A stretch of 64,000 bases of DNA from Candidatus Heimdallarchaeum aukensis. GTDB lineage: Archaea; Asgardarchaeota; Heimdallarchaeia; Heimdallarchaeales; Heimdallarchaeaceae. The notes under the pieces are model-generated. The model was not told the origin of the DNA and ran no database searches. It saw only the letters and a list, made by a program, of their open reading frames with translations. Made by a program: the position numbers and the translations under genes. This document shows, in pieces, positions 293 to 64,000 of this stretch. The DNA is taken from positions 1,088,001 to 1,152,000 of the forward strand of contig CP084166.1 in assembly GCA_021513695.1 (NCBI GenBank), read 5' to 3'. How positions within the stretch are numbered: position 1 is the first letter of the stretch; every line of letters begins with the position of its first letter.

Positions 293-2776
293 ATGAAAAT
301 CATGACTAAGAAGACACTAAGAGAGATAAAGAACAATAAATTCCGTAGTTTAAGCATCGTACTTATAGTTGCAATAACTTTAGCAATGCTAGTTGGTTTA
401 CGTGCAGCAGAACCAGGTCTTTTTGCTACCTATAATTTAAATATGAGAGAACAACATGTCGCAGATGGAACATTTTCATTTACTCAAATGATTGATGAAT
501 CAAATGTTACAGCAATTTCGAACAATCAAACTTTCCTTCAACAGTCAGACATCTCGGAGATTGAAGGAAGAATATTTTACAGTACTGAATTAATATTCAA
601 TGATGAACCTTTCAAAGCATATGTTATAGGAATAGATTTTCCAAATAAACTAAATGTACTAAATATAGAGGAAAAAGCCGATGATATAACTGATGATAAC
701 ACAATTTTAGATAAAAATAACAGCTGCTTAGTTGAAACAAGATTTGCTGGCCATAAAATCAAATTTCTGGGCCAAAATGTTCCTTTGAACGCTAATCTAA
801 CTGTTAATTTTATGGGGAATGATGTAAATTTAACAGTAAAAGGGATTGCACAAGATAGTTATTACACATATCTTGTTGATGAAATATCTAAAATCCCTCT
901 TCTTGGAAATCTGGCAGTAATATGGGTAAATATTGACACTGTTAGAAATTTGTTAAATGTAAGTGATACAGCAATTAACCAAGTTTTGTTCACAGTAAAA
1001 GACAGATTCAATAAAAATATGATATATAAAGCAGTAGGACATTTAACTAATTACTTTTCAGCAAACAACGTTGAAACAAGTACAATTAAATTTACTATTT
1101 ATGATGAAACTGATGAATATAATATGTTTTTAGGTGATGCAGGGGCAGCTGATAAGGCAGGAACATTTTTTGCAACTTTAGGTTTAATCATATGTGTAGT
1201 AATCATTTCTAATACCGTCTCTAAACTTATATATTCACAAAGAAAAAACATAGGATTATTCCTAGCAATGGGGTCAAAGAAGAGAGAGATAGTTTTTCAC
1301 TATTTAGGAATCGTTATGTTTCTATCAATTATAGGTATTCTTCTAGGAATTCCCCTCGCCTTGTATCTTATAATATCAATGGTTAAAGCTACGACAAAGG
1401 TCTATGGTTTTCATTTAGTAGCTAGAACTATCCCACTTGATGAGTTTATTATTGGTACTACCGTAACTTTTGTTATATGCGCTTTGAGTTCTGTTCTAAG
1501 TTCTTTACCCATTACTAAAACGACACCTAGAGAAGCAATGAGCGTAGCTTTCTCAAGAATCACAATTACTGAAAAGACTTTAATTGAAAAATCTTTAAGT
1601 TGGATTCCTGTTCTGAATTCAATTTTTCTACGTATCCCTCTTCGAGAAGTATTTCTAAAAAAGAGAAAATCTATGATTACTATTCTAGCTCTTACAACTT
1701 CTATGATCTTTCTTATAATCTCTGCTTCTATGACTTATAATACTATTAGTTCAATGGAGAAAAATTTCGATGTTTACAACAATTTCGATGTAAAAGTTAC
1801 TTTAAGCGTACCTGTCCCTACGCAAAAAATATCTACATTCTTTAAACAAAATAGTGATAAACTAGAAAATATAACATATCACGAAATATTCTTGAGCTTT
1901 TACACAAAAATAATAAGAAACGATGAACTACTAACATGGTCTCAATTTGAATGCTATCAAACAAACTCAACTTTACGTAATTACCATGTAGTTAAGGGAG
2001 ATGTTACTGAAAAAGAGGATTTAGGTAACAGTACTATTTTTTTGGGTAAATCGCTAGCTGGAAAATACGACATTAAGATTGGAGACAAGATTAACATTGG
2101 AATCTTAGGAAATTATACAGTAGAGGTAGTAGGATTAGTAGGTGAACTAGTAGATTACTCTGTATTGTGGACAATCGAATCATTTCAAGAAAGTGGAGCA
2201 AATGCGTATTTTGGCATTCCTAACAATTATGTTAATGGAATAACATTTAATGTTAAACCAGGCACAGATCTAAAGATACTAAGAAAGATTTTCGAAGAAA
2301 ATTTCTATATTGACACTTGGACTGATCAGCAAACAGCAAAAAATTCAAGTTTAGCCTTGCTCGAATCATCTTTAGGAATATTAATGGTTTTCTTAGGAAT
2401 TGGACTAGCTATTGGCATAATATTCTCTTTTCAAACTATGTATATGTCATTTATTGACAGGCACCTTGATTTCATCGCATTTAAGGCAATGGGAACAAAA
2501 CTAAAACTTATACGGAGGATAATCTTTATCGAAAATGGTATTTTGAGCCTATTTTCCTTAGTGTTATCTGTACCTATTGGATACATTACATATCGTTGGA
2601 GTATTGATTATATGATGGGAGATACATTCTATGTTCCTTACACCATTCCATTATTTATTTGGCCAATCATTCTCTTCCTTTCACTTTCGTCAATCTATTT
2701 AGCAACATTAAGACTGATGAGAAAAATCAAGAAGATGAAACTTGCTGATGAACTGAGACAAACAGGAGTATCTTAA
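293..2776 (+). CDS. MacB/LolE-like ABC permease (FtsX family, large extracytoplasmic domains)
   Basis: The 827-aa protein has TM helices at the N terminus, the middle and the C terminus flanking long soluble loops. Two FtsX-like 4-TM blocks are present. It sits 4 nt after the ABC ATPase gene. Confidence 0.65.
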   Translation: MKIMTKKTLREIKNNKFRSLSIVLIVAITLAMLVGLRAAEPGLFATYNLNMREQHVADGTFSFTQMIDESNVTAISNNQTFLQQSDISEIEGRIFYSTELIFNDEPFKAYVIGIDFPNKLNVLNIEEKADDITDDNTILDKNNSCLVETRFAGHKIKFLGQNVPLNANLTVNFMGNDVNLTVKGIAQDSYYTYLVDEISKIPLLGNLAVIWVNIDTVRNLLNVSDTAINQVLFTVKDRFNKNMIYKAVGHLTNYFSANNVETSTIKFTIYDETDEYNMFLGDAGAADKAGTFFATLGLIICVVIISNTVSKLIYSQRKNIGLFLAMGSKKREIVFHYLGIVMFLSIIGILLGIPLALYLIISMVKATTKVYGFHLVARTIPLDEFIIGTTVTFVICALSSVLSSLPITKTTPREAMSVAFSRITITEKTLIEKSLSWIPVLNSIFLRIPLREVFLKKRKSMITILALTTSMIFLIISASMTYNTISSMEKNFDVYNNFDVKVTLSVPVPTQKISTFFKQNSDKLENITYHEIFLSFYTKIIRNDELLTWSQFECYQTNSTLRNYHVVKGDVTEKEDLGNSTIFLGKSLAGKYDIKIGDKINIGILGNYTVEVVGLVGELVDYSVLWTIESFQESGANAYFGIPNNYVNGITFNVKPGTDLKILRKIFEENFYIDTWTDQQTAKNSSLALLESSLGILMVFLGIGLAIGIIFSFQTMYMSFIDRHLDFIAFKAMGTKLKLIRRIIFIENGILSLFSLVLSVPIGYITYRWSIDYMMGDTFYVPYTIPLFIWPIILFLSLSSIYLATLRLMRKIKKMKLADELRQTGVS

Positions 2777-2825
2777 TTTCTTTTTCTTTCAAAAATTTTT
2801 TATTCCCTTTACCTTTTTTAAAATT

Positions 2826-3545
2826 ATGACTGAACTTTTATTTCGAGATGATTCATATTTAACTGAATTTAAAGCAAAGATACTTGCCATTGAAGAAAAT
2901 GCAGTGATTTTAGATAAAACAGCTTTTTCTTTTCAAGGAGGAGGACTTAAATCTGATACTGGTGTTATCACAACTTCAGAGGGAGTAGAGTTTGAAGTTA
3001 CAAAAGTTTTATCTCAGAAGGGAAAAATTTTACATTTTCTTAATCCAGCCCCTTCAGAGGATTTAGTGGGAAAGGAAATAACTGGTAAAATTGATTGGGA
3101 GAGAAGATTTAGACAGATGAGGATGCATACATGCCTTCATGCCATCTCTGGTATACTTTACAAAAAATATGGAGTTCATGTCACAGGGGGAGATATTAAA
3201 CCAGAAAAAAGCAGAGTAGATTTTGAAATAGATCATCTTAGAGAAGAACGAGTAAAAGAGATTAAGGAAGCAATAGATAAGATAATAGAAGAAGACCATC
3301 CAATAACTGTATCATATATGAAAAGAGAAGAAGCTATCAAAAATCCTGATCTCATTCGTACAAAAGTTAACCTTATTCCCGAATCTGTAAAAATCCTCCG
3401 AATTGTTGAAATAGAAGGGGTAGACATTCAAGCTGATGGGGGAGTTCATGTTAAAAGCACGAAAGAGATAGGAGAATTTATTCCTCTTAAAGCTGAAAAC
3501 AGAGGTAAAAACCATAAAAGGTTATACTTTACTGTAAAGCCCTAA
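2826..3545 (+). CDS. alaX: AlaX-like tRNA(Ala) editing deacylase (AlaRS editing-domain homologue)
   Basis: It has the HTCLHAISG (HxxxH) zinc motif and a GGVHVKSTKEIGEF block typical of the AlaX/ThrRS second additional domain. Length is about 240 aa. Confidence 0.65.
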   Translation: MTELLFRDDSYLTEFKAKILAIEENAVILDKTAFSFQGGGLKSDTGVITTSEGVEFEVTKVLSQKGKILHFLNPAPSEDLVGKEITGKIDWERRFRQMRMHTCLHAISGILYKKYGVHVTGGDIKPEKSRVDFEIDHLREERVKEIKEAIDKIIEEDHPITVSYMKREEAIKNPDLIRTKVNLIPESVKILRIVEIEGVDIQADGGVHVKSTKEIGEFIPLKAENRGKNHKRLYFTVKP

Positions 3546-3875
3546 ATTACTTTACTTCACTTTTTAAAAAAATTTAGAAGCACAACAATTACTCTGATAT
3601 AACTTGCCTTAATAAATGAATAACTTAATTTTTTTTCCTGATTGGTTCAACTATCTTAAATCCTTAAATATTCGTTAAGAATTTTTCAAGAATTTCATTC
3701 TAAAGTACTTTTTTGAAATCCTTTTTTCAAGATTCAATACACTCAAACAATTTTTTATTAAAAATGCTATATTAAATAACTACATTATAATATAGTTCTA
3801 AAAATTCTAATCCAAACTTAACCAAAACCTTAAAAATGTTTGAAAAAAACCCAACAACAAGAATAAATAGATATT

Positions 3876-4802
3876 GTGATGTACATGAACAAGTCGAAAA
3901 TTTTCGGAACACTCTTAATATTAACAATGGTAGGTTTGAGTTTAACATCCTCTTCATTAAGTAGTCTAGCTTATGATCAACTTGAAGAAGCTAATTCATT
4001 AAGAGCTACAACAGTCATAAAACCTCACGACATCATCAGCCAAGATTATCTCAACGCTTTTTCTTACTCCAGCCAAATTAGGGTTGGAAAACTCATTAAG
4101 TTTAAAGTTACAGAGCTTGAACGAACAGAGAATATTCATGTTCAAGAAGGAGATAAAAAGATAAAGAAAGGAGACAACATTATTATTAGAATCGAAGCTG
4201 ATCCAGATTTGAACCTAAACCACCCAGACCAATGGGCTCTAATTTATGTTAATGACGTTAAAGCTCTTTACACTAGAGAATCCTATCAAATTGCTCGTTT
4301 CTTCCATTACATATTACCAAAAACAGTAAATATCTCGATGGTTGATTTTGCTCAAGATTTAGATGGTTCTATGTTTGGAGATTATCCAATTGGAACAGAA
4401 GTAATCAGTTTCTTTGATTTTGTAAAATATTTCAAAGAAACAGGTGACCCAGACTTCCAAACATGGGAATTCGAAGGAAACACAGCTATTTATGAATATG
4501 ACCAAGTTATAGAAACAGGAAACACCTCACATACAAAATTGATCTACGATATGGATACAAGTTTCTTAAATGAATACTATTACTCTGAAGTTCATACTGT
4601 CAATGGTGAGGTAGTTGCTAGTGCTAACATGACATTAATTAGAACACACGGTTGGGGACTTCCATATAATGTCAGTACTTTAGTTGTGTGGATACCCATT
4701 ATGGTTTTCACATTAGGTATCATCATTGCTATCAGACTAAGAGTTGCACAAAGAATAAAAATCTACTTTGAAGCTAAAAAACTAGCAAAAAGAGAAGAAT
4801 AA
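3876..4802 (+). CDS. secreted/surface protein with C-terminal TM anchor and basic tail
   Basis: It has an N-terminal signal peptide and a C-terminal hydrophobic helix followed by RLRVAQRIK...KKLAKREE. No recognisable enzymatic motif. Confidence 0.5.
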   Translation: MMYMNKSKIFGTLLILTMVGLSLTSSSLSSLAYDQLEEANSLRATTVIKPHDIISQDYLNAFSYSSQIRVGKLIKFKVTELERTENIHVQEGDKKIKKGDNIIIRIEADPDLNLNHPDQWALIYVNDVKALYTRESYQIARFFHYILPKTVNISMVDFAQDLDGSMFGDYPIGTEVISFFDFVKYFKETGDPDFQTWEFEGNTAIYEYDQVIETGNTSHTKLIYDMDTSFLNEYYYSEVHTVNGEVVASANMTLIRTHGWGLPYNVSTLVVWIPIMVFTLGIIIAIRLRVAQRIKIYFEAKKLAKREE

Positions 4803-4926
4803 ACTTTTTATCTTTCTTTTTTATTTCCAGATTATTTTTTTGATTTTTAAGTTAATTTAGAACAAAAATAATTTTTAAATATGCCTTTCTACATCGTATT
4901 ATTTCCCTAAAAAAAGAGGTGAACAA

Positions 4927-6465
4927 ATGCCAAACATGAAAGCTAAACAAATAGATGTTAACGTTGATAATAACATTGTAATAATAAACGAAAAGACTTT
5001 AGATAAAGAGAAAATTAAACACTCTTCATATGTGAAAGTGAGGAATAAAGACAAAGAAGTTTTATGTCAAGTTGTAGCTACATCTTCATTAGTACCTGAA
5101 GGTTATGCAGGTTTAACTAATAGTATTATTGAAACATTAAAAGTAAAAGAAGAAGATGTTGTAAATATTTTTTCTAGAAAAATTCCTCAGTCGATAGAAT
5201 ATGTAAAGAAAAAAAGAATGGGAACAGTCTGGACAGAGAACCAAATTAGGCAGATTGTAAATGACATATGTGCAGGTCAATATACAGATTTAGAAATAGG
5301 AATGTTTACTCTTTCACAATATTTTATTGGATTAACAATGGATGAAATAGCCTCCTTAACAAAAAATATGGCTGAATATGGTACCACATTACAATTTGGT
5401 GAACCAGTATATGATAAACATAGTATAGGAGGGGTTCCAGGAAACAAAGTTAGCTTACTAATTGTTCCTACTGTAGCTGCCGCTGGTCTTCTGATTCCTA
5501 AAACGAGTTCACGAGCTATTACAAGCCCATCTGGAACAGCTGATACTATGGAAGTTTTAGCTGAAGTTAACTTTTCAGCAGATGAGATATTAGAAATTGC
5601 ACCGAAAGTAAGAGGAATGCTTGTTTGGGGTGGTACTTTAGATCTTTCTCCATTGGATGAAATTGTTATACACAGAGTAGAACGACCATTAAGTATAGAT
5701 CCTCACAGTCAAATGCTTGCGAGTATATTTAGTAAAAAAATCTCCACAGGAGTTGACTACTTAGTCTTAGACATGCCTACTGGAGCTGGAACTAAAATGC
5801 CTACAAAAGAAGATGCAATAAACTACGCCCATGAAGCTACAGAACTAGGTAGAAGATTAGGTATCAGAGTCGAAGCAGCATTGAGTTATGGTGATCAACC
5901 TGTAGGAAGAGCTATTGGACCAGCCTTAGAAGCTAAGGAAGCTTTGCTAACATTAGAAGGAAAAGGTTCTAAGAGTGTTCTTGAGAAAAGTATAGAATTA
6001 GCAGGTATATTATTTGAGATGGCAGGTTTAGCTCCTCCAACAAAAGGATCAGAATTAGCTTTTAAATATATCAAGAGCGGTAAAGCTAAAGAAAAGATGG
6101 AAGAAATTATAGGAGTTCAAGGAGGAGATCCGGCTATAAAACCTGAAGACATCCCTGTAGGAAGTAAAACACAAACTATTGAATCTCCCCATGATGGATA
6201 TATAGTCAAGTTATCTAATTCAGCTATAAAGAAAATAGCTTTTACAGCTGGAGCTCCTAGACACAAAGAAGCGGGTGTTTATTTGCATAAAAAAATAGGC
6301 GAATTTGTAAGGAAGGGAGAACCCTTATATACAATTTATGCAAATAGTGAAGGAAGGCTCACAGATGCAGCGAATGTAGGAGCTAATCTTCGTCCATATT
6401 CAATTGAAGGGATGATAATCCAAAGGATTTCTTCTGGACCTAGAAATCAAGATATAAAAGAGTGA
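4927..6465 (+). CDS. deoA: AMP phosphorylase / thymidine phosphorylase family protein (archaeal DeoA type)
   Basis: The 512-aa protein has glycosyltransferase family-3 / pyrimidine-nucleoside phosphorylase blocks (SIGGVPGNKVSLL, TSSRAITSPSGTADT) plus the extra N-terminal domain typical of archaeal AMPpase. A GAGG-like SD (gaggtga) lies 6 nt upstream. Confidence 0.7.
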   Translation: MPNMKAKQIDVNVDNNIVIINEKTLDKEKIKHSSYVKVRNKDKEVLCQVVATSSLVPEGYAGLTNSIIETLKVKEEDVVNIFSRKIPQSIEYVKKKRMGTVWTENQIRQIVNDICAGQYTDLEIGMFTLSQYFIGLTMDEIASLTKNMAEYGTTLQFGEPVYDKHSIGGVPGNKVSLLIVPTVAAAGLLIPKTSSRAITSPSGTADTMEVLAEVNFSADEILEIAPKVRGMLVWGGTLDLSPLDEIVIHRVERPLSIDPHSQMLASIFSKKISTGVDYLVLDMPTGAGTKMPTKEDAINYAHEATELGRRLGIRVEAALSYGDQPVGRAIGPALEAKEALLTLEGKGSKSVLEKSIELAGILFEMAGLAPPTKGSELAFKYIKSGKAKEKMEEIIGVQGGDPAIKPEDIPVGSKTQTIESPHDGYIVKLSNSAIKKIAFTAGAPRHKEAGVYLHKKIGEFVRKGEPLYTIYANSEGRLTDAANVGANLRPYSIEGMIIQRISSGPRNQDIKE

Positions 6466-31120: not shown

Positions 31121-31298
31121 AAAATCAAATTAAAAATAATAAAAGAAGATATAAACGTTTACGATGGTTTACTTTTTCTGAAATACGAAATCATAGGAAA
31201 AAGTGAAAAAAGAAGAGAAGAAAGAAAAAAAAGAGGAAGGAGAAGAGGAGAGGAGAGGGAAAATGAGGGTTTTATATAGGGGAAAAAAGTAAGAAGAA

Positions 31299-32559
31299 AT
31301 GAAAGAAAAAATGAGTAGAAAGGTGTGGCGAACTGAGGAAATATGGGTGAAGGATTCGATCACTCTAAAACAGTTGGCACACAAGGTAAAAAACTTGTAT
31401 AATCAAGCAAATTATATTATTAAGTATCAGTTAAGAAAAAGTAAATATTTCACAAAAGAGTTTGAACTGATGAATATTTTAAGGTATCACCCGACTTACA
31501 CAGCTTTACCTGGTCATACGGCACAACGGACGATAAAGTTTCTATGTTTAGCGTGGAAAGGGTATTTTAGGTCTTTAGAAGAATGGAAAAAGGAACCAGA
31601 AAAGTTTAACGGTAAACCCTGTCCTCCAAGATATAAGAAGAAAGAAGGACTTGCTATAATCTATTTTACTAACTCTCAAGTGAAAATTAAAGAAGAAAAA
31701 GAACAAGAAAAAGAAAAATTTTTTATCTCTTTCCCTAAACGTGTAGGACTAAAGATAGTTACAAGACTGTCTCCTTCAACGAAAGTGAAGTTTGCCCGTC
31801 TCATACCTATGGGGACGAAGTTTAAATTAGAGATAGTTTACGAGAAAGAGGTAGAAGAACAAAAAAAAACGACATGCAGAAAGAGTTCTAGCTCTTGATC
31901 TGGGAGTGAATAATTTAGTCGCAGGTTTAACCACTATTCCAGGTGAAAAAGGTTTTCTGATAAATGGTAGACCCATTAAAGCTGTTAACCAGTGGTTTAA
32001 TAAACGTAGGGCAAAGTTACAGTCAATCTATGACAAGCAAGGATTAACCACCTGGGGAAGAAAAATGTTTCAACTCCAGTTAGAACGAATGTGTAAAATC
32101 ACCAACTATTTCCATAAAGCAAGTAGAAAAATAGTAGACTATTGTTCAGAAAAAAACATTGATACGATAGTTATAGGTTACAACCCCCGATGGAAACAAG
32201 AAGTGATTATGGGTAAAAAGAATAATCAAACCTTTGTTTTTATACCCTTCAAATCGCTAATTGACAAAATCACTTACAAAGCAGAAGAAAAAGGAATAAA
32301 AGTTCTTCCTACCGAAGAGTCCTACACCTCTGTCTACAGTTTCTTGGATAATGAAGAGATAGCTTTCCACCTCCATTATGCTGGTAAAAGAATCCATCGT
32401 GGACTATTTATCAGTACCAGAGGATTAAAAATTAATGCTGATATCAACTCTGCAGGTAATATCGGTCGCAAAGTATTCCCCACGTTATTCTCTGTTATGT
32501 CTAACTACGGGATAGTCTGGGGTGCAGTGGTTCACCCCGTCCGTTGGAAAATAAGTTAG
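31299..32559 (+). pseudogene. tnpB: tnpB (RuvC-like RNA-guided nuclease family), frameshifted in an A9 run near 31860
   Basis: Split across two ORFs (199 aa and 217 aa). RuvC-I ALDLGVNNL is visible in copy 2, and the RuvC-I region is at the frameshift in copy 1. RuvC-II is EESYTS and RuvC-III is NADINSAGNI. No CxxC...CxxC zinc finger lies between RuvC-II and RuvC-III. Confidence 0.6.
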
Positions 32560-32639
32560 TTAGTTGAGTTAGTTAGTCCAGCTCTTACGCTGTTCTTTCT
32601 TTCTCTTTATTTTTCGACCGACTAAACTTACTCTTTCTT

Positions 32640-32660
32640 CCGATTTTTAATCAAAATCGG
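32640..32660 (+). repeat. IS right-end subterminal hairpin CCGATTTT-TAATC-AAAATCGG
   Basis: Perfect 8-bp inverted repeat. The same hairpin is at 42803..42823 in copy 2. Confidence 0.6.
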
Positions 32661-32687
32661 AATTTGGGAAAAGGTAAACCATAAGGA

Positions 32688-40572: not shown

Positions 40573-41349
40573 ATGTCCCAGAAAAAAACTGAATTCCTTG
40601 AACCTGTTTTATCTAATGATTTAATAGTCACATTAAACGCTGCAATTGGTGAGCGAATGCTAATTTTAGCAGGCAGCTGTACAGCTTTTTTTGATGGAAG
40701 AATAAAGTCTACTTTAGAATTAGGAGAGAGGATATTAATAATTAAAAAAGACCTATCCATATTAATGCATGGAGTTTCAGGGGTAAAACCTTTAAATTGG
40801 CAAAAGCCAAATCAAGGGCCAATTTCATTTCTAAAAGAGAAAAATGAATTAGTTATGTACACAAAAAGGAAAAAAACAGAAGAAGAGTTATGGATTAGAT
40901 TTCGTTCTATTGATTTTGTTATTTTATGGTCAGGTAGCGATTTTTCTTCTTTAGAGATTTATGGGGATGAATCTGACCTTGTTCAATATCTCGTAAAACA
41001 TCCCTCAATAATTGAAAAGGATTTGCAAATTCTTTCTACAGAATACCCAACTGATGTAGGATTTGTTGACATTAAAGCTCTTGATAGCAAGAAAAGACTG
41101 ATTATTATTGAAGTAAAAAAACGTAACGCTACACCTTCAGATGCTTTTCAGTTAAAAAGATATAAGGACTATTTTGAAAATATCGAAAATAAAAAAATTA
41201 GAGCTATACTTGTTGCTCCTTCTTTCCCTGACAAAGTAAAAAAATATTTAGAGATAAATAACTTAGAATTTCAAGAAGTAGATTGGAAAAACATCTTTCC
41301 CACTATTTCTAGAGAAAAAAATATGAAAATTGATGATTTCTTTTTCTGA
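40573..41349 (+). CDS. nucS: NucS/EndoMS mismatch-specific endonuclease (RecB-like nuclease C-terminal domain)
   Basis: The 258-aa protein's C-terminal GFVDIKALDSKKRLIIIEVKKRNAT...FQLKRY matches the NucS D...E.K and QxxxY motifs. Its last codons and stop lie inside the left end of IS copy 2. Confidence 0.6.
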   Translation: MSQKKTEFLEPVLSNDLIVTLNAAIGERMLILAGSCTAFFDGRIKSTLELGERILIIKKDLSILMHGVSGVKPLNWQKPNQGPISFLKEKNELVMYTKRKKTEEELWIRFRSIDFVILWSGSDFSSLEIYGDESDLVQYLVKHPSIIEKDLQILSTEYPTDVGFVDIKALDSKKRLIIIEVKKRNATPSDAFQLKRYKDYFENIENKKIRAILVAPSFPDKVKKYLEINNLEFQEVDWKNIFPTISREKNMKIDDFFF

Positions 41350-42844
41350 AATTATGAAGTTATAGAAAAAGTTGAAAAAAGAAGAAAGAAAGGGAGAGGA
41401 AAGAAAGCGGAGGAGAGAGGAAAGGAGGGAAAATGAGGAGTTTAAATAGTGAAAAAAAGTAAAAATGAATGAATGAGAAAATGAGGAAAAAGGTGTGGCG
41501 AACTGAGGAAATATGGGGGAAAGAATCGATCACTCTAAAGCAGTTGGCACACCAGGTAAAAAACTTGTATAATCAAGCAAATTACATTATTAAGTATCAG
41601 TTAAGAAAAAGTAAATATTTCACGAGAGAGTTCGAACTGATGAATATTTTAAGGTATCACCCGACCTACACAGCACTACCTGGTCATACGGCACAACAGA
41701 CGATAAAGTTTCTATGTTTAGCGTGGAAAGGGTATTTTAGGTCTTTAGAAGAATGCAAAAAAGAACCAGAAAAGTTTAATGGTAAACCCCGTCCTCCAAA
41801 ATAGAAGAAGAAAGATGGACTTGCTATAATCTATTTTACTAACTCTCAAGTGAAAATTAAAGAAGAAAAAGAGCAAGAAAAAGAAAAATTTTTTATCTCT
41901 TTCCCTAAACGTGTAGGACTAAAGATAGTTACAAGACTGTGTCCTTCAACGAAAGTGAAGTTTGCCCGTCTTATACCTATGGGAACGAAATTTAAATTAG
42001 AGATAGTTTACGAGAAAGAGATAGAAGAACGAAAAAAACGACATGCAGAAAGAGTTCTAGCTCTTGATCTGGGAGTGAATAACCTTGTAGGCGGGTTAAC
42101 CACTATTCCTGGTGAAAAAGGTTTTCTGATAAATGGTAGACCCATTAAAGCTGTTAATCAGTGGTTTAATAAACGTAGGGCAAAATTACAGTCAATCTAT
42201 GACAAGCAAGGATTAAACACCTGGGGAAGAAAAATGCTTACTCTCCAGTTAGAACGAATGTGTAAAATAGCTGACTATTTCCATAAAGCAAGTAGGAAGA
42301 TAATAGACTACTGTTTAGAAAAAAACATTGATACGATAGTTATAGGTTACAACCCCAGATGGAAACAGAAAGTGAATATGGGAAAGAAAAATAACCAAAC
42401 CTTTGTTTTTATCCCCTTTAAATCCCTCATTGATAAAATCACTTACAAAGCAGAAGAAAAAGGGATAAAAGTTATTCCTACCGAAGAGTCCTACACCTCT
42501 GTCTGCAGTTTCTTAGATAATGAAGAGATAGCTTTTCACCCCCATTATGCTGGCAAAAGAACTCACCGTGGACTGTTCATCAGTACCAGAGGATTAAAAA
42601 TTAATGCTGATATCAACTCTGCAGGTAATATCGGTCGCAAAGTATTCCCCACGTTATTCTCTGTTATGTTTAACTACGGGATAGTCTGGGCTGCAGTGGT
42701 TCACCCCGTCCGTTGGAAAATAAGTTAGCAAGTTAAGTTAGTCCAGCTCTTATGCTGTTCTTTCTCTTTCTTTTTTTCCACCGACTAAACTTCCTCCTCC
42801 TTCCGATTTTTAATCTAAATCGGAATTTAGGAAAAAGTAAACCA
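41338..42844 (+). mobile_element. TnpB-only IS200/IS605-like element, copy 2
   Basis: Paralogous to 31172..32682. It has the same purine-rich left end and the right-end hairpin at 42803..42823. Confidence 0.65.
41469..42728 (+). pseudogene. tnpB: tnpB copy 2, interrupted by an in-frame TAG (PPK* instead of PPRYKKK) near 41802
   Basis: ORFs of 111 aa and 292 aa. RuvC-I LDLGVNNL, RuvC-II EESYTS and RuvC-III NADINSAGNI are intact, with no zinc finger. A 3-nt deletion plus substitution creates a stop relative to copy 1. Confidence 0.6.
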
Positions 42845-42860
42845 TGATTTTTTTTAAGAA

Positions 42861-53541: not shown

Positions 53542-54153
53542 TTAAGGCTTATATCTATCAAATAAGAAAAAGTGCAGTTTTCCTTTCATTTTTGTGGCTA
53601 AAACAAAGTTTTTTCTTACTGTGGTTGCAAGCCGTCCAGCTCTAACTAATTCAATTGGATTAATAGAGCCTTCTTTCTTTATAATTTGAACAAGATAAGG
53701 AGAGTGTTCTAATCCTGGGCCTTTAGTATAAACAGCAAAGTCAGTACCAAACTTCAATCCAGGTTTAACAACATAACCTTTTTCTCTTAAATGGTTGTAA
53801 ACCTCCATTTTCTGGTCAAAATTGATGTGATTTTCGCGACATCGTTTAAGAAACTGCTCTTTATCCAAAAGATTACCCTCTTCATCAAAGATCTCAATTA
53901 TCTTCTTTTCTTGGAGATAAAAAGCTTCAAAGTAAGACAACTCTAAAGGGTCTCTAAATTCATCACCGATATTAGGCTTTCTGACACCTATGGGCTTACC
54001 ATAAAAACCATTATTGTATAGCCAAGTTCCTTTTTCTAAGTCCCATACGACTACTCGGTTGCCAATAAATTGAGCTTTAATTAGTTCATTCATTCTTGTT
54101 ACTAGTGATATAACCATTTTTATTTTTATGTTTTTTAGTGAAAAAAACCACAA
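53542..54153 (-). CDS. endA: tRNA-splicing endonuclease EndA
   Basis: The C-terminal catalytic domain has LREKGYVVKPGLKFGTDFAVYTKGPG..HSPYLV and a basic RLATTVRK region. The true start may be the internal Met (MVISLV...). Confidence 0.7.
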   Translation of the reverse strand: MWFFSLKNIKIKMVISLVTRMNELIKAQFIGNRVVVWDLEKGTWLYNNGFYGKPIGVRKPNIGDEFRDPLELSYFEAFYLQEKKIIEIFDEEGNLLDKEQFLKRCRENHINFDQKMEVYNHLREKGYVVKPGLKFGTDFAVYTKGPGLEHSPYLVQIIKKEGSINPIELVRAGRLATTVRKNFVLATKMKGKLHFFLFDRYKP

Positions 54154-54188
54154 AAAATAAAGATAATGACGATTTTATTTAATTATAG

Positions 54189-55382
54189 ATGACCAATACT
54201 AACGATTTTCCCTTATCTATTGAGAAATATGTCCAACAATGCATTTACTGTGGATATTGTTCTGTATGCCCAACATATAAAGAAATAGGTTGGGAGAGTA
54301 ATCATCCCCGAGGAATTCTTAAACAGATTGAAAAATACATCAATGAGGATACAAGTAGAGAAGAACAAAAAACTTTGTTTCAAGCAGTTTTTGATTGTAC
54401 TTTGTGTGGAGCGTGTCAAAATATTTGTTTGTCTGACATCCCGATCATAGATATTTGGATACAGATGAGAAAAGAAGCATTTGATAAAGGTCTTTGGAAA
54501 CAAGAATTAGTTCAAGTAACAGAATTTGTTAAAACAACCCATAATATATATGGATTAGAACCAGAGGACAGATTAAAATGGACAGAATATGTGAATATTA
54601 ACCTTAATCGAAGAGTGAAAAAGAATAAACCAGTCCTATTCTTTTTTGGTTGCCAAGCTTCTTATTCAGGAAAAATGATGAAAATAGCAGAAAGTGCAGT
54701 AAAAGTCCTTCGTAAAGCAAAAGTCGATTTCACAGTACTAGGAGAAGATGAATGGTGTTGTGGTTCACCCATATTCCTGGGAGGAGGATTTGATCTAGGA
54801 AAATCTTTAGCGAAACACAATCTAGAAGAAATAAAAAAACTAGGTATAAAGACACTTGTAACTGCATGTTCAGGATGTTATAGAACTTTCAAAAACGTTT
54901 ATCCAAATATCTTAGGTGAAGAATGGAACATAGAAGTACTTCATTTCTCAGAACTTATTTCCAAATTGATAAAAGAAGGGAAAATAGAGTTTAAAAAGGA
55001 ATTATCAGAAAAAATTACTTACAAAGACCCATGTGAGTTAGTAAGGCATACTGGAGTAATTCAAGCTCCAAGAGATGTAATTTTAAACATCAAAAACGTT
55101 CGCTATGAAGAGTTAATCTCCAATAAAGAAAATGCACTTTGTTGTGGGGGAGGAGGTTTACTAAAAATCAATAATCGTCCTTTAGTTGAGCAAGTAAATG
55201 ATAGATTAATGGACGAAATTGCTTATTCTGAAGCAGATATTGTGGTAAACAATTGCCCTCTTTGTCTAGACACAATTAGCCTAGGTGTGAAGAAGAAAAA
55301 CCTGAATGTAGAAGTCATAGATATGACAGAACTTGTAGCGCGAGCTATGGGAATAAAGGAGAAGGAGGAGGATAAGGATTAA
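54189..55382 (+). CDS. HdrD/GlcF/LutA-like iron-sulfur oxidoreductase (2x[4Fe-4S] + two CCG domains)
   Basis: CIYCGYCSVCP and CTLCGACQNIC ferredoxin motifs, followed by cysteine-rich CCG domains (CCGSP, CCGGGG). Confidence 0.7.
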   Translation: MTNTNDFPLSIEKYVQQCIYCGYCSVCPTYKEIGWESNHPRGILKQIEKYINEDTSREEQKTLFQAVFDCTLCGACQNICLSDIPIIDIWIQMRKEAFDKGLWKQELVQVTEFVKTTHNIYGLEPEDRLKWTEYVNINLNRRVKKNKPVLFFFGCQASYSGKMMKIAESAVKVLRKAKVDFTVLGEDEWCCGSPIFLGGGFDLGKSLAKHNLEEIKKLGIKTLVTACSGCYRTFKNVYPNILGEEWNIEVLHFSELISKLIKEGKIEFKKELSEKITYKDPCELVRHTGVIQAPRDVILNIKNVRYEELISNKENALCCGGGGLLKINNRPLVEQVNDRLMDEIAYSEADIVVNNCPLCLDTISLGVKKKNLNVEVIDMTELVARAMGIKEKEEDKD

Positions 55383-55539
55383 AGACAATGAAAGAGCGCA
55401 ATTTAGAAGATTCTTTAAAAAGAGATTCGAAGAAGGAGAACATATTTTAGAACTTTATACAAGAGATTTTGCTAAAGTTCCAAATTTAGTAAAAAAACTA
55501 GTTATTGCTAAACCAGAAGCAGTAATATTAGTAGAAACA

Positions 55540-56781
55540 GTGGAAGACATTAAGAAAGCATTTGAGATAGCAAATAAAACAAAAATACCTCTTATCCCTC
55601 GCGCAGGAGCTACTTCAGGACATGGAGGAACACTAGTTTATAAAAAAGGAATAATAGTCGATCTAACAAAACTTAACAGGATAATAGATATAGAGTTGAT
55701 GGATCAATCAGTAACAGTAGAACCAGCAGTAACTTTCCACGACCTAGAAAAAGCTCTAACAATGCAAAGTTTAGCTCTTTGCTCCTATCCATCAAGTATC
55801 TACTCAGGAACAATAGGAGGGTGGATAGCACAAGGAGGAGAAGGTATAGGGAGTTTGAAATATGGAAGCATTATAGACCTATTACTGGGTTTAGAAGTAG
55901 TTTTACCCAATGGAAGTGTAAAATACTACACTGAGAAAGAAGATTTTGAAATGTTTGTAGGAGCACAAGGAACAACGGGAATAATAACAAAAATAAAAAT
56001 GAAGTTTAGATTTGATATACCTCTAAAACATATAGCTTTTACATTTGATAACTTCACAGACATGCTAAAAGGGTTATCAAGATGTAGAGAAGTAGAACCA
56101 TTTTCAGTTTGGTTCCTAAATAAACATAAAGTAGATTACCTAAATAAAACACTAGGATATATCTTACCTTCACGTCATCTAGTAATTGTTTCAAAAGAGA
56201 TAAGCTATGATGAAGAAGAAAAAGAGTTCAGAGAAAAAATATACAAGATAGTAAGAGAAGAAAAAGGACAGCTAATTTCAGATTATTATATTCAAGGAAT
56301 TTGGAAAGCAAGATTCAAAATCTTTTCAATATTAAAAGAAATGGACAACTATATTTTGGGAGAAGTAAGCATACCCTTAGATTACGGAGCAGCGTATATA
56401 GAGAATCTACCAAAGAAAATAGATAGAAAAATATTGATAGAAGGAACAATGGTCTCTTTTTCCACTGTATCAATAATCTTGAATTTGGTGCTAAAAACAG
56501 ACCAATCAAAAATTAAACAATATAAAAAATTCTTGAAAGTCTATAAATGGATACTAAAAGCAATAAAAATAGGTGGATTCCCCTCAGCAACAGGGTTGTG
56601 GTTCGGAGGATATTACCACACTATTTATGGAAAAGAAAGAGAAGAGAAATTATTGAAATTTAAGAAAGAAGTAGATAAAAACAATATTTGCAATCCGGAT
56701 AAAGTATGGTCGCCTAAAGTAAAACAATTACCCTTAATCTCTTTGAAAACAGCGATAAAAATTATTGGTGGATTATTTTGA
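55540..56781 (+). CDS. FAD-linked oxidase (GlcD / D-lactate dehydrogenase-like); true N terminus is upstream in this frame from ~55357 with an apparent frameshift
   Basis: FAD-binding type-4 motif IPLIPRAGATSGHGG. The conserved PEAVILVETVEDIK start of the FAD domain lies upstream of the GTG at 55540, with no in-frame ATG. The ATG at 55388 is in another frame. Confidence 0.6.
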   Translation: MEDIKKAFEIANKTKIPLIPRAGATSGHGGTLVYKKGIIVDLTKLNRIIDIELMDQSVTVEPAVTFHDLEKALTMQSLALCSYPSSIYSGTIGGWIAQGGEGIGSLKYGSIIDLLLGLEVVLPNGSVKYYTEKEDFEMFVGAQGTTGIITKIKMKFRFDIPLKHIAFTFDNFTDMLKGLSRCREVEPFSVWFLNKHKVDYLNKTLGYILPSRHLVIVSKEISYDEEEKEFREKIYKIVREEKGQLISDYYIQGIWKARFKIFSILKEMDNYILGEVSIPLDYGAAYIENLPKKIDRKILIEGTMVSFSTVSIILNLVLKTDQSKIKQYKKFLKVYKWILKAIKIGGFPSATGLWFGGYYHTIYGKEREEKLLKFKKEVDKNNICNPDKVWSPKVKQLPLISLKTAIKIIGGLF

Positions 56782-59496: not shown

Positions 59497-59571
59497 TGGT
59501 AGTCCCCAGGAGATTTGAACTCCTGCCCCCGGATCCAGAGTCCGGGATCCTTGCCACTAGACTAGGGGACT
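59497..59571 (-). tRNA. tRNA-Gln (anticodon CUG)
   Basis: The reverse complement folds as AGTCCCC/GGGGACT acceptor, CCGGA-CTCTGGA-TCCGG anticodon arm and AGGAG-TTCAAAT-CTCCT T arm, followed by ACCA. Confidence 0.8.
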
Positions 59572-59606: not shown

Positions 59607-59681
59607 TGGTAGTCCCCAGGAGATTCGAACTCCTGCCACCGGATTCAAAGTCCGGAATCCTTGCCGCTAGACTAGGGGACT
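59607..59681 (-). tRNA. tRNA-Gln (anticodon UUG)
   Basis: Same scaffold as the neighbouring tRNA, with anticodon loop CTTTGAA and T loop TTCGAAT. It lies 35 nt from the first tRNA-Gln. Confidence 0.8.
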
Positions 59682-59868
59682 TTTTATCTTAACTATTAGT
59701 CTTCTGTCGATTCTTTTTTTTAATTGTGTTTTAAACTTTTCTTTATCTACTATGCTTTATAAACTATTAAATTTTTTTGATTTTTTTCGACTTTTTTCTT
59801 TTTTTCTTTCTCTCATTCTTTTTCCTTATCAAAAAATAAATAAGAGTAAACTTACATTTTATATTATT

Positions 59869-61266
59869 ATGCTTATAAAAACTGGTATTAATGAGCTTGA
59901 CCAGATGATTGATGGTGGTTTACGTACCCATTATTGTTATTCTATCAAGGGTTCTGCTGGTGCTGGTAAGACTGTTTTATCTATTTTTCTTGCTTGGGGT
60001 GCTCTCAATCAGGACATCCCTGTTGTTTTTATTAGTACTGAGATTGAACCTGATCGTATTATTCATTATTTTCACTCTTTTGGTCTTCCTGTTGAGGACT
60101 ACATTGACCGAGGGTTATTAGTCATTGATAAGATGTCTTTGAAGTCTTCTGGTGAGGAGATTATCCAGACTAACAGTTTTGATTTATCAGGTATTATTTT
60201 ACGTGTTACTAAGAAGATTGAGCGTATTCGAGCTAAGTTGGTTATTTTTGATTCTCTTTCTGCTTTTATTGCTGACTTTGAGTATAAAGACACTGCCCGT
60301 AGTAAGTATATTGATTTTATTAAGCGCATTACTAGTTTAGATACTTCTTTAATTATTACTATTGAGTGTGACCCTATTACTAGCAGTTCTCAGATTGACT
60401 ATTTAGTTGACGGTGTTATTGCTTTAAAGACCGAATTAATCAACAATCAGCTAATCAAGAAGATTTCTGTTCCTAAATTAAGAGAAGCCAAGCCTTTAGT
60501 TTATGAAAACCGTTATACTATTACTCAGAAAGGTTTTAGGATTTTCAAATCTGAGAGCGAGCCTTTGTTTACCGTTGATCGTTCTACTGGTATTAAGGTT
60601 TTGGACAATCTTTTAGGTGGAGGTATTGCTCGAGGTTCTGTTGTTTTAGTTGAGATCAATGGTGAGATTAATTATTTTCCTTTCTTCTTGACTCTTCTTT
60701 ACAATTATTTAACTCTAAACCATGGTGTTATCATTCATTCCAATGTTCAGATGAATGTTAATCGTATTTTGGAGGAGTTTGAGCGAGGTCAGTGTGACAT
60801 TTCTGACTACTTACGTGATGGTAATATTGTCTTTTTGGATAAGTACAATCGTTCTGTCACTGCTGTTGAAGCTAAAGAGATTCGTGATATGATTAACTTA
60901 GATGACATGTTAGCTATTACTGTTGAGATGATGCAGGCTTTTGGTTCTGACACTGAAGTTGTTGTTTTTGGTGATCTTACTGATGATGTTAACATTTTGA
61001 ATGAGCGTGATTTCTTAAAATTGTTTGCTCTTCAGTCTTACAACATTAAGGAGCATAATGCTATTTCCTTTTCTTTTATCAATTACAATGCTGTTGACAA
61101 AAAAATTCTCGCTCGTTTACGTACCACCTCTGATGTTATCATTCGTTTATCGCGTGAAAATTATTCTAACTACATTGAATGTTTGAAGAGCACTACTGGT
61201 GCTACATTTCTTGCTAAGAATATTGAATTTAAAAAAAGTTATCCTATGATTGAAATTGTTGAGTGA
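59869..61266 (+). CDS. KaiC-family double RecA-domain ATPase
   Basis: First domain is GINELDQMIDGGL ... IKGSAGAGKTVLS. Second domain is GIKVLDNLLGGGIARGSVVLVEINGE. The ORF track starts at 59752, but the first 39 codons are a hydrophobic low-complexity stretch. Confidence 0.65.
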   Translation: MLIKTGINELDQMIDGGLRTHYCYSIKGSAGAGKTVLSIFLAWGALNQDIPVVFISTEIEPDRIIHYFHSFGLPVEDYIDRGLLVIDKMSLKSSGEEIIQTNSFDLSGIILRVTKKIERIRAKLVIFDSLSAFIADFEYKDTARSKYIDFIKRITSLDTSLIITIECDPITSSSQIDYLVDGVIALKTELINNQLIKKISVPKLREAKPLVYENRYTITQKGFRIFKSESEPLFTVDRSTGIKVLDNLLGGGIARGSVVLVEINGEINYFPFFLTLLYNYLTLNHGVIIHSNVQMNVNRILEEFERGQCDISDYLRDGNIVFLDKYNRSVTAVEAKEIRDMINLDDMLAITVEMMQAFGSDTEVVVFGDLTDDVNILNERDFLKLFALQSYNIKEHNAISFSFINYNAVDKKILARLRTTSDVIIRLSRENYSNYIECLKSTTGATFLAKNIEFKKSYPMIEIVE

Positions 61267-61275
61267 GGAAGTATT

Positions 61276-61524
61276 ATGCACAAGATTTTATACTTCAAGA
61301 GCAAAACTTGTAACTGGTGTCCTTTTGTCGAATCGATTTTAAAGAAGATTGTTTCTGAAAAATCTACTTTAGAGTTAGAAGTTATTGATATTGAAGAAAA
61401 TTATGAAATCGCTGAAAAGTATAATATTATCGCTGTTCCTACTATTATTCTTCCTAACTCTACTAAAATTGTTGGTGCTACCGATGAAACTTTTCTACGC
61501 CAGCAGTTATCATTTTTTTTGTGA
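61276..61524 (+). CDS. small thioredoxin/glutaredoxin-fold protein (CNWC active site)
   Basis: An 82-aa protein with KTCNWCPF CxxC and a cis-Pro region AVPTIIL. Confidence 0.55.
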   Translation: MHKILYFKSKTCNWCPFVESILKKIVSEKSTLELEVIDIEENYEIAEKYNIIAVPTIILPNSTKIVGATDETFLRQQLSFFL

Positions 61525-61641
61525 TTGGTGAGAACTGCTTTCTTTTTGTTCTTTTTTTTGGTAAATTGTTTTTTTCGTTCTTTAATTCTACTTTCATCTC
61601 TATAAGAAAACTCTTTAAATTCTTTTCTTTTTTGTAAATTA

Positions 61642-63373
61642 ATGACTTGGTCCTTAAATGATTCAAAGCTTATCTATGGTGTTGATCAAAACGATCTTTA
61701 TTTTTTAGATATTAATGATCAAGGTGAACTTTTACTTAAGCTTAAGGATCAATCTATTTCTTTTAATGAAATCATCAATCTTGTTAAGTCTCAGTTTAAC
61801 TCTTCTTCTCTCTCTTCTGTTCCTTCATTTACTCTTCGCATTCCTCAATTAATAACTGAACAAATTTCCAAACTTAACACTTGTTTCCAGTCTGCTATTC
61901 ATCAATATCAATATTCTGGCAATTTTCAAGGCATCTATCCTATTAAAGTTAATTCTTTGAGTTATGTTCTTGAAACTATTAAAGCGAACAGTCCTTCCTA
62001 TGCTTTTGAAGCTGGAACTGTTAATGAATTAGATGTTTTGCTTTCTCTTCTTCGTGATGATAAAACTCGTATGATAATGTGTAACGGTGTTAAAGATTCA
62101 GACTATATAGATAAGATTAGAGGAGCTCTTAACGATGGTTATTCTATTGTTATTAGTTTGGAGTCATGCTCTGAGTCTACTACCATTCTTGATTTAATAG
62201 ACCATGATTTACTTAAACTTGCTTTGAGAATCAAACCCTATCCCACTGTTAAATCTCATTGGGGAAGTTCTTCTGGTCGCGATTCTAAATTTGGTTTATC
62301 TATTCATGAATTTAAGCGCATTATTAATTTGTTAGAAAAAAGAGGAGTAAAGGATAAAGTTATTGCTATTCACGCTCATCCTGGTTCTCAGATTATTGAT
62401 ATTGATGGTTTAAGGTTCTTTGTTCTGTATCTTTCAAACAGGTATTTAGAACTTAAGCGTCTTGGTTTCACCAACCTTAACAATATAGACTTTGGTGGAG
62501 GTATACCTATTAATTATGATAATAGGTTACCCTCTGACATTTTAGATAATTATGTTAAAACGCTTGTATTAACTCTAAAAGAGACTATCACCGATTCTGA
62601 CGTTCAACCTAATATTTGGATTGAAGCAGGAAGGTTTCTTACTGCTCCCTCTTCCTTAATTATTGTTGAAACTATTGCTCTTTACTCTATTTTCCCCTCT
62701 GAAGAGAGTTTAAATGACCATAAGGCTATGATTAGCTCAATGCTTGAAAAAATCACTCATCCTTCTTCGATACTTAATTTATTTTCTCATTGGACTGAAT
62801 TACAATCTCCTACAATCGACTCAAATGTTAACGAAATCTTGAAGACTGAAATTTTGATGAAACACTTAAAATTAGCTATCAGAGAAAAAATGATGAATTT
62901 TGATGATGAGCAAAAGTTCAACAGGATTTTTGATTTAGATTTGGATGAGATATTCTATGAGATTTATTCCCCTGAACATATCTTAATCGGTAATTTCAGT
63001 GTTTTCAATACTATTATTGATTGGTTACTTGTTGGTCAATATTTTCCTATTCTTCCTATAGACAATCTTGATCATCAACCTGTTTCTTTAGCTAGATTGG
63101 TGGATAAAACATGTGATTCTGATGGTGAGATATCTATTTACCATCCTGTCTTTAATGAAGAAAAGATTTTGTATACCAAGGATGGTTTTCCATTAACAGT
63201 CAAAGACAAGAAATTTAATCTCATGGGCTTTCCTATTGGTTGTTTGCCTACTAATTTCCCATATTATTTAGTTATTGCTTTAACAGGTGCCTACCAAGAT
63301 AACATTAAGATGCATCACAATCTAATTGAGCCATTAAGTAGTATTATTATCAAGCATGAGAATGGGCAGTGGA
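61642..63373 (+). CDS. speA: biosynthetic arginine decarboxylase (SpeA, PLP fold-III), 3' end replaced by or fused to duplicated KaiC sequence
   Basis: Not in the ORF track because there is no stop before the window end. Translation gives MTWSLNDSKLIYGVDQNDLYFLDINDQGELLL ... YQYSGNFQGIYPIKVNSLSYVLETIK...YAFEAGTVNELDVLLSL ... IDFGGGIPINYD ... ALTGAYQDNIKMHHNLIEP, matching SpeA blocks. The reading frame continues in frame into the repeat at 63374. Confidence 0.6.
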
Positions 63374-64000
63374 CTATTACTAGCAGTTCTCAGATTGACT
63401 ATTTAGTTGACGGTGTTATTGCTTTAAAGACCGAATTAATCAACAATCAGCTAATCAAGAAGATTTCTGTTCCTAAATTAAGAGAAGCCAAGCCTTTAGT
63501 TTATGAAAACCGTTATACTATTACTCAGAAAGGTTTTAGGATTTTCAAATCTGAGAGCGAGCCTTTGTTTACCGTTGATCGTTCTACTGGTATTAAGGTT
63601 TTGGACAATCTTTTAGGTGGAGGTATTGCTCGAGGTTCTGTTGTTTTAGTTGAGATCAATGGTGAGATTAATTATTTTCCTTTCTTCTTGACTCTTCTTT
63701 ACAATTATTTAACTCTAAACCATGGTGTTATCATTCATTCCAATGTTCAGATGAATGTTAATCGTATTTTGGAGGAGTTTGAGCGAGGTCAGTGTGACAT
63801 TTCTGACTACTTACGTGATGGTAATATTGTCTTTTTGGATAAGTACAATCGTTCTGTCACTGCTGTTGAAGCTAAAGAGATTCGTGATATGATTAACTTA
63901 GATGACATGTTAGCTATTACTGTTGAGATGATGCAGGCTTTTGGTTCTGACACTGAAGTTGTTGTTTTTGGTGATCTTACTGATGATGTTAACATTTTGA
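63374..64000 (+). repeat. exact direct duplicate of 60374..61000 (internal KaiC-like gene segment), offset exactly 3000 bp, truncated by window end
   Basis: Base-for-base identity over 627 bp. The antisense ORFs 60807..60995 and 63807..63995 are identical. Confidence 0.9.

What the first reader, a model, noticed from the sequence alone, without database searches (positions are those of the whole stretch)
60374..64000. 627-bp exact duplication at precisely 3000-bp spacing fuses speA in frame to an internal KaiC-like gene fragment
Positions 63374-64000 are identical base-for-base to 60374-61000 (inside the KaiC-like ATPase gene). The duplicated block begins mid-codon in the same phase as the arginine decarboxylase ORF. 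As a result SpeA (complete N-terminal ~575 aa, all PLP-fold blocks present) reads straight into KaiC residues (..HENGQW|TITSSSQIDYLVDGVIALK..) and loses its own C-terminal ~50 aa. Exact identity and a round-number offset point to an assembly or concatenation artefact or an extremely recent tandem segmental duplication. Either way the annotation of both genes here is unsafe.
Basis: seen in the sequence. Interest (0 to 1): 0.5.

Follow-up and report, generated by a model that had tools for sequence, protein, structure and literature searches.

The report
Recent 3-kb tandem duplication, chimeric gene
The last 627 bases of the window are the start of a second, identical copy of a 3,000-base segment in the published genome of the Asgard archaeon Candidatus Heimdallarchaeum aukensis; it is most likely a real, very young tandem duplication, it fuses two genes in frame while intact copies of both remain, and it is an ordinary kind of event.

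Summary
Window 63374-64000 equals 60374-61000 base for base, and speA reads in frame into the KaiC-like gene. It is not a window or concatenation artefact. The window comes from the closed genome of Ca. Heimdallarchaeum aukensis PM71. GenBank lists, in consecutive order, an intact KaiC-like protein (465 aa), a thioredoxin-family protein (82 aa), an 874-aa protein identical to the fusion I predicted, one locus I could not retrieve, and an intact 585-aa SpeA. That order means two full tandem copies of a 3,000-bp unit.

An independent k=31 assembly of a sequencing run (Logan, SRR15988954) breaks exactly at both ends of the unit. A simulation gives these breaks for two copies and none for one copy. 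Several contigs from ~96-99% identical relatives are single-copy.

The fusion replaces only 8 SpeA residues, not about 50. The junction has no microhomology. Read depth and spanning reads could not be checked, so a subpopulation variant or a library chimera is not excluded. This is a known kind of event and of low interest.

The parts
59869..61266 (+). Intact KaiC-family ATPase gene (465 aa; GenBank UJG41780.1, K9W45_04785). Walker A GSAGAGKT lies at aa 28-35. The duplication boundary falls in codon 169.
   Evidence: Exact match. Pfam PF06745 at 148.5 bits. Walker A position.
60374..63373 (+). Copy 1 of the 3,000-bp duplicated unit. It holds the 3' two-thirds of the kaiC-like gene, the thioredoxin-family gene, and speA codons 1-577 plus one base.
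   Evidence: Identical to Logan contig SRR15988954_9443 (L007), which is exactly 3000 bp.
61276..61524 (+). Thioredoxin-family gene (82 aa; UJG41781.1). It resembles KaiB only weakly.
   Evidence: PF13192 scores 41.6 bits. PF07689 KaiB scores 26.5 bits, below its cut-off of 27.
61642..64000 (+). Chimeric gene speA(1-577)::kaiC-like(170-465), 874 aa in the full genome (UJG41782.1, K9W45_04795). It runs off the window end; by extrapolation of the repeat its stop codon would lie at about window position 64266.
   Evidence: P0133 is identical to the predicted fusion. Pfam finds PF02784 plus the C-terminal part of PF06745.
63373..63374 (+). Novel junction between the end and the start of the unit (..GGCAGTGGA|CTATTACTAG..). 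It is blunt, with 0 nt of microhomology.
63374..64000 (+). First 627 nt of copy 2 of the unit.
   Evidence: The rest of copy 2 is inferred from GenBank proteins UJG41782.1 and UJG41784.1.

Best explanation
This is a genuine and very recent head-to-tail tandem duplication of a 3,000-bp segment (window 60374-63373) in the Ca. Heimdallarchaeum aukensis PM71 population that was sequenced. It formed by illegitimate, non-homologous joining of a point 8 codons before the speA stop to codon 169 of the upstream kaiC-like gene. The resulting gene order is kaiC-like (intact), trx, speA'::'kaiC-like (chimera), trx, speA (intact). No gene is lost. The trx gene and most of speA are present in two doses. One new in-frame open reading frame of 874 aa sits behind the normal speA upstream region. 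Its KaiC-derived part lacks the only P-loop, so it should not be an ATPase. Shown here: the junction, the two-copy structure in the deposited genome, the loop in the read graph, and the single-copy state in relatives. Inferred: that the junction is present in a large fraction of the cells, how it formed, and that the chimera is expressed.
For:: the 627-nt identity is exact.
GenBank proteins of Ca. H. aukensis carry consecutive accessions. UJG41780.1 is the KaiC-like protein (465 aa), UJG41781.1 the Trx protein (82 aa), UJG41782.1 an 874-aa protein identical to the predicted fusion, and UJG41784.1 an intact 585-aa SpeA. UJG41786.1 is the conserved 467-aa downstream gene. This order fits exactly two copies.
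the Logan k=31 contigs of SRR15988954 are 100% identical to the window. Contig _159 (17,594 bp) ends at 60403. Contig _9443 is exactly 60374-63373. Contig _10170 (12,142 bp) starts with 63344-63373 and then continues with ATGTTTTATATT.., which encodes NVLYYRDK*. Neighbouring contigs overlap by k-1 = 30 nt.
in a simulation, a single-copy sequence gives no unitig break over about 31 kb, and a two-copy sequence gives breaks at exactly 60403/60374 and 63373/63344.
L004, L006, L016/L018, L017 and L019 (~96-99% id) and the more distant L020 run through the speA 3' end without the junction. L004, L005, L006, L008, L009 and L010 run through the kaiC-like site without it.
the Illumina library (NEBNext Ultra) is not described as MDA-amplified, and coverage was 346x.
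Against: The junction unitig itself (60 nt) could not be retrieved, and no read depth or spanning long reads were available. The copy number and the fraction of cells that carry the duplication are therefore unknown.
The deposited genome and the Logan contigs almost certainly derive from the same DNA sample and library, so a chimera formed in that library would affect both.
The genome was assembled with metaSPAdes and scaffolded with LRScaf using Nanopore reads from MDA-amplified DNA. That route resolves loops by heuristics rather than by spanning evidence.
The unit length of exactly 3000 bp is an odd coincidence (about 1 in 1000 a priori).
A junction with zero microhomology is also what blunt ligation of two fragments would give.
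That SRR15988954 is the Illumina run of sample FW4588 is my inference from the run series and the 100% identity; no record states it.
Confidence: 0.72

Rival explanations
1. Technical chimera plus assembler loop. A chimeric DNA fragment made during library preparation or amplification joined 63373 to 60374. Its k-mers created a loop in the graph, and metaSPAdes/LRScaf traversed that loop once more than the real genome does. The true genome would then be single-copy.
For: The junction has no microhomology, as blunt ligation would give. There was a single DNA sample of low yield, and the Nanopore reads came from MDA-amplified DNA. At 346x coverage, even rare junctions pass a k-mer abundance threshold of 2. 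Two copies is the minimal traversal of a loop.
Against: Library chimeras are random and individually rare, yet this one had to survive graph cleaning in two different assemblers. From memory, Minia removes short connections with under about a quarter of the neighbouring coverage, and metaSPAdes disconnects edges with under about a tenth. A chimera between two points 3 kb apart, in direct orientation on the same strand, is not the common type. From memory, MDA chimeras are mostly inverted and use microhomology. The Illumina library is not described as MDA-based.
Confidence: 0.13
2. Real junction but minority variant. Only part of the enrichment population carries the duplication, or it carries more than two copies. 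The deposited two-copy sequence would then be one arbitrary representation of a mixed population.
For: Tandem duplications are unstable and usually polymorphic (general knowledge). The graph topology is the same for any frequency and for any copy number of two or more.
Against: Nothing in hand argues against it. It is a sub-case of the best explanation, and survival of the junction in two assemblers suggests the variant is not rare.
Confidence: 0.3
3. Extrachromosomal 3-kb circle. The segment 60374-63373 exists as a circular molecule beside a single-copy chromosome, which would give the same junction.
For: A circle and a tandem duplication give the same de Bruijn loop. Recombination between the two copies of a duplication releases such circles.
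Against: The boundaries carry no repeats, att sites, integrase or replication gene. They lie inside two housekeeping-type genes. Nothing is present that could maintain a circle.
Confidence: 0.03
4. Artefact of window construction or concatenation, such as padding, a stale buffer or tiling with a 3000-base overlap.
For: Only the round numbers 3000, 61000 and 64000.
Against: GenBank holds the 874-aa fusion protein and a downstream intact SpeA. Independent Logan contigs end at the same bases. '61000' follows automatically from a 3000 offset that runs to the window end.
Confidence: 0.01

Closest known systems
Spontaneous tandem segmental duplications in prokaryotic chromosomes (duplication-amplification; Roth/Andersson literature, cited from memory)
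   Same: Head-to-tail copies without a spacer, identical copies, one novel join point, a single-copy state in close relatives, and an increase in gene dosage without gene loss.
   Different: The join point has no homology at all, whereas many known cases use IS elements, rRNA operons or short repeats. It was seen in an uncultured Asgard archaeon from an enrichment metagenome, and its frequency in the population is unknown.
Chimeric gene birth by tandem duplication (described mainly in Drosophila and other eukaryotes; cited from memory)
   Same: The duplication boundaries fall inside two neighbouring genes on the same strand. The join therefore creates a 5'-gene::3'-gene chimera while both parent genes stay intact at the outer edges.
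   Different: Here the genes are archaeal, intronless and densely packed, and the fusion is in frame only because the unit length is a multiple of 3. There is no evidence of expression or selection.
False duplications and loop artefacts in genome assemblies
   Same: Exact identity, a simple loop in the assembly graph, and short-read contigs joined by a scaffolder.
   Different: The loop edges exist in an independent assembly of the sequencing run, and the boundaries are not at contig or scaffold ends filled with N.
Cyanobacterial KaiC/KaiB clock pair
   Same: A two-domain KaiC-family ATPase gene is followed by a small gene for a protein with a thioredoxin fold.
   Different: Scores are far below the equivalog cut-offs (KaiC 144.7 vs 408; KaiB 17.6 vs 110 and 145.3). 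The second domain has no P-loop. The small protein scores best as a thioredoxin.

Membership tests
Tandem segmental duplication | Two adjacent direct copies with no spacer | tested here: met
   The window shows copy 1 plus 627 nt of copy 2. GenBank proteins UJG41782.1 (874-aa fusion) and UJG41784.1 (intact SpeA) show that copy 2 is complete.
Tandem segmental duplication | A single novel junction that joins the end of the unit to its start, with the flanks otherwise colinear with the ancestral order | tested here: met
   Junction at 63373|63374. The Logan contigs for left flank, unit and right flank overlap by k-1 and reconstruct the ancestral order.
Tandem segmental duplication | Single-copy arrangement in close relatives | tested here: met
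   L004, L006, L016/L018, L017 and L019 (~96-99% id) and the more distant L020 show kaiC-like, trx, speA and the downstream gene without the junction.
Tandem segmental duplication | Junction present in raw reads | tested here: inconclusive
   The support is indirect but precise. The k=31 contig breaks fall at 60403/60374 and 63373/63344, as the simulation predicts for a loop. The junction reads themselves were not seen.
Tandem segmental duplication | Doubled read depth over the unit, and long reads spanning both copies | not testable with these tools
   No access to reads or coverage.
Assembly false duplication | Junction unsupported by the read graph, or duplication at a scaffold join or gap | tested here: not met
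   The read graph branches exactly at both unit ends. The window contains no N.
Biosynthetic arginine decarboxylase SpeA (NCBIfam NF003763 / TIGR01273) | Score above the equivalog cut-off | tested here: not met
   301.8 vs 369 and 283.5 vs 624.1. The Pfam PLP-binding domain PF02784 is met at 84.9 vs 23.4. It is best called a SpeA-like PLP-dependent decarboxylase, common in Asgard archaea.
Circadian KaiC (NF006799 / TIGR02655) | Score above the equivalog cut-off, and two P-loop domains | tested here: not met
   144.7 vs 408. There is only one Walker A, at aa 28-35. The Pfam KaiC-family domain PF06745 is met at 148.5 vs 26.6.
KaiB (PF07689) | Score above the gathering cut-off | tested here: not met
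   26.5 vs 27. The thioredoxin families score higher.

The most novel reading that the evidence does not exclude
A gene fusion caught at birth in one of the closest archaeal relatives of eukaryotes. A homology-independent tandem duplication rose to high frequency during a 9-month enrichment. It would produce an expressed SpeA-KaiC-like chimera that tethers a polyamine-synthesis enzyme to the oligomerisation half of a KaiC-family ATPase, and it may have been selected for the extra dose of trx and speA.
Probability: 0.1. Interest if true: 0.45.

Novelty: new member of a known kind. Interest (0 to 1): 0.2.

Why it matters
For users of this reference genome, K9W45_04795 (874 aa; UniProt names it arginine decarboxylase) should not be read as a conserved SpeA-KaiC domain architecture. 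It is a strain-specific product of a duplication. No other protein among the 120 best hits of a search of 5.8 billion protein clusters covers more than 69% of it. Gene-family counts for KaiC-like, thioredoxin and SpeA genes in this genome are inflated by one partial or complete copy each. In biological terms it is an example of how tandem duplication creates multidomain chimeras in Asgard archaea, but one unselected, unverified event is of limited significance.

Tried and rejected
The source genome appears to be absent from or masked in that index.

2. The 30-mer before the junction gave no hit in genome contigs. In metagenome contigs it gave one hit, a relative with the normal continuation.

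3. The accession SRR15988954 is not mentioned in the searchable papers.

4. I suspected that the 150-aa gene downstream of speA was missing in this strain. This was rejected: it lies at the start of L021, and translation shows it intact.

5. A stale-buffer or tiling artefact (64000 - 3000 = 61000) was considered first and rejected on the GenBank and Logan evidence.

6. A second strain that shares the 3-kb segment with different flanks was considered as the cause of the contig breaks. It cannot produce the junction from unit end to unit start seen in the deposited genome, and the known relatives stay identical to the window for more than 30 nt to the left of 60374.

7. The source paper does not mention KaiC, arginine decarboxylase or this duplication.
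Full report
**Observation.** Window 63374-64000 is identical, base for base, to 60374-61000 (627 nt). The identity stops sharply on the left (60373 = C, 63373 = A) and runs to the window end. No other round offset gives more than an 11-nt run (also family D1). speA starts at ATG 61642 and the KaiC-like gene at ATG 59869. The boundary is the second base of a codon in both genes, so speA reads in frame into the KaiC-like gene (..HENGQW-T-ITSSSQIDYLV..).

**Source of the window.** A search with the predicted full-length fusion found only ordinary SpeA-like proteins of about 585-650 aa. They cover at most 69% of the query, and the best hits are from Candidatus Heimdallarchaeaceae, which are Asgard archaea. 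Listing the members of the best cluster identified the source:
- UJG41782.1 (K9W45_04795, Ca. Heimdallarchaeum aukensis, 874 aa) is identical to the fusion I had predicted by joining window 61642-63373 to 60374-61266.
- UJG41784.1 (K9W45_04805, 585 aa) is an intact SpeA. Its first 577 residues are identical to the window's, and it ends NVLYYRDK.
- The intact KaiC-like protein (465 aa, window 59869-61266) is UJG41780.1 / K9W45_04785, and the 82-aa protein is UJG41781.1.
- The conserved 467-aa downstream gene is UJG41786.1 / K9W45_04815.

The consecutive accessions and locus tags give the order kaiC-like, trx, speA'::'kaiC-like, [one locus not retrieved, presumably trx], speA, [one locus], 467-aa gene. 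That order means exactly two complete tandem copies of a 3,000-bp unit in the closed 3,081,793-bp genome. The duplication therefore continues beyond the window end, and an intact speA follows it.

**Is the junction in the reads?** The genome was assembled with metaSPAdes from one Illumina PE150 library (NEBNext Ultra). It was scaffolded with LRScaf using Nanopore reads from MDA-amplified DNA and polished with Pilon at 346x (PMC8813620). Such a route could in principle create a false duplication.

An independent k=31 assembly of run SRR15988954 (Logan) has three contigs that are 100% identical to the window:
- Contig _159 (17,594 bp) ends at window 60403.
- Contig _9443 is exactly 3,000 bp and equals window 60374-63373.
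- Contig _10170 (12,142 bp) begins with window 63344-63373. It then continues ATGTTTTATATTATAGAGATAAATAA, which is the normal speA end NVLYYRDK*, followed by the conserved downstream genes.

Neighbouring contigs overlap by 30 nt (k-1). Joined in order, the left-flank contig, the unit contig and the right-flank contig give the ancestral single-copy sequence. The graph nevertheless branches at both ends of the unit, to the base.

I built the k=31 graph for both models. The single-copy model gives no break anywhere in about 31 kb. The two-copy model gives breaks at 60403/60374 and 63373/63344, exactly as observed. The extra in-edge at 60374 and the extra out-edge at 63373 are explained together by the junction seen in the window.

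The round length of 3000 is therefore a property of the read graph and not of window construction. I take it as a coincidence. That SRR15988954 is the Illumina run of sample FW4588 is my inference, from the run series (SRR15988958 and SRR15988961 also hold Heimdallarchaeum contigs) and from the error-free contigs.

**Ancestral state.** Contigs from ~96-99% identical relatives in environmental metagenomes (L004, L006, L016/L018, L017, L019) and from the more distant L020 run kaiC-like (465 aa), trx (82 aa), speA (584-585 aa), a gene of about 150 aa and a 467-aa gene, without any junction. Six contigs cross the kaiC-like boundary site uninterrupted. The duplication is specific to the PM71 enrichment population. 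The unit assembles as a single variant-free contig, so the two copies carry no differences and the event is very recent.

**Anatomy and likely mechanism.**
- The junction (..GGCAGTGGA|CTATTACTAG..) shares no base with either ancestral partner sequence. There is no microhomology, which points to illegitimate end-joining rather than recombination between repeats.
- Both genes lie in the same absolute frame and the unit is a multiple of 3, so the fusion is in frame. That has a 1-in-3 chance and is not evidence of selection.
- The chimera keeps SpeA residues 1-577 of 585, including the whole PLP-binding domain (PF02784, residues 90-335).
- To this it adds KaiC-like residues 170-465. That is the last third of the first KaiC domain plus the second domain.
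- The only Walker A motif (GSAGAGKT, aa 28-35) and the Walker B-like strand (about aa 124) are absent from the fragment, and the fragment has no GK[ST]. The added part should therefore be ATPase-dead. Whether it still oligomerises with the intact KaiC-like protein is speculation.
- The chimera keeps the speA upstream region, so it is probably transcribed (inference).

**Family assignments**.
- The ATPase is a KaiC-family protein (PF06745, 148.5 bits) but not a circadian KaiC (144.7 vs cut-off 408).
- The 82-aa protein is a thioredoxin-family protein (KaiB 26.5 vs cut-off 27).
- The decarboxylase is SpeA-like but scores below the equivalog cut-off (301.8 vs 369).
The native archaeal protein is 585 aa.

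**What remains open.** I could not see reads, depth or the 60-nt junction contig. The graph topology is the same for a fixed duplication, a subpopulation variant, more than two copies, or a circle. A library chimera that reached sufficient multiplicity would also produce it, although it would have had to survive error-removal in both Minia (Logan) and metaSPAdes, and it would be of an unusual type: direct orientation, 3 kb apart, no microhomology. The thresholds of those tools are cited from memory. The deposited genome and the Logan contigs share the same library, so they are independent as assemblies but not as data.

**Novelty.** The source paper does not mention this locus. It is one more instance of a well-known process and of low general interest. 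Its practical value is as a warning: the 874-aa 'arginine decarboxylase' is a strain-specific chimera and not a conserved domain architecture.

Noticed in passing
window 31163-32682 and 41332-42845: A dispersed direct repeat of 1.5 kb at 91% identity. ORFs 31906-32559 and 41850-42728 match OrfB_IS605 (PF01385) and the Cas12f1-like TNB domain (PF07282). These are two diverged TnpB/IS605-family copies, each apparently split into two ORFs, with a conserved ~80-nt tail (32602-32682 / 42765-42845) after the gene.
   Followed up: partly
window 59497-59571 and 59607-59681 (- strand): Two tandem tRNA-Gln genes (anticodons CTG and TTG), 92% identical to each other and 35 nt apart, just upstream of the kaiC-like gene.
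   Followed up: no
L004 about 729-5608 (Ga0366833_1024442), relative to window about 59770-59786: The ~97% identical relative carries about 4.9 kb of extra DNA between the tRNA-Gln pair and the kaiC-like gene. It holds four ORFs without Pfam hits. L005 shows the same genes and L008 a variant. This may be a small integrated element or an indel next to the tRNA genes.
   Followed up: partly
window 59752-59868: The longest ORF of the kaiC-like gene (504 aa, ATG 59752) is not the annotated one. GenBank and all relatives use ATG 59869 (465 aa), and the 504-aa form is absent from the protein collection.
   Followed up: yes
window 53566-56582: A second run of the same series (SRR15988958, contig _336, 3,017 bp) carries sequence 100% identical to the window. 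The same strain is therefore present in at least two runs of the project.
   Followed up: no
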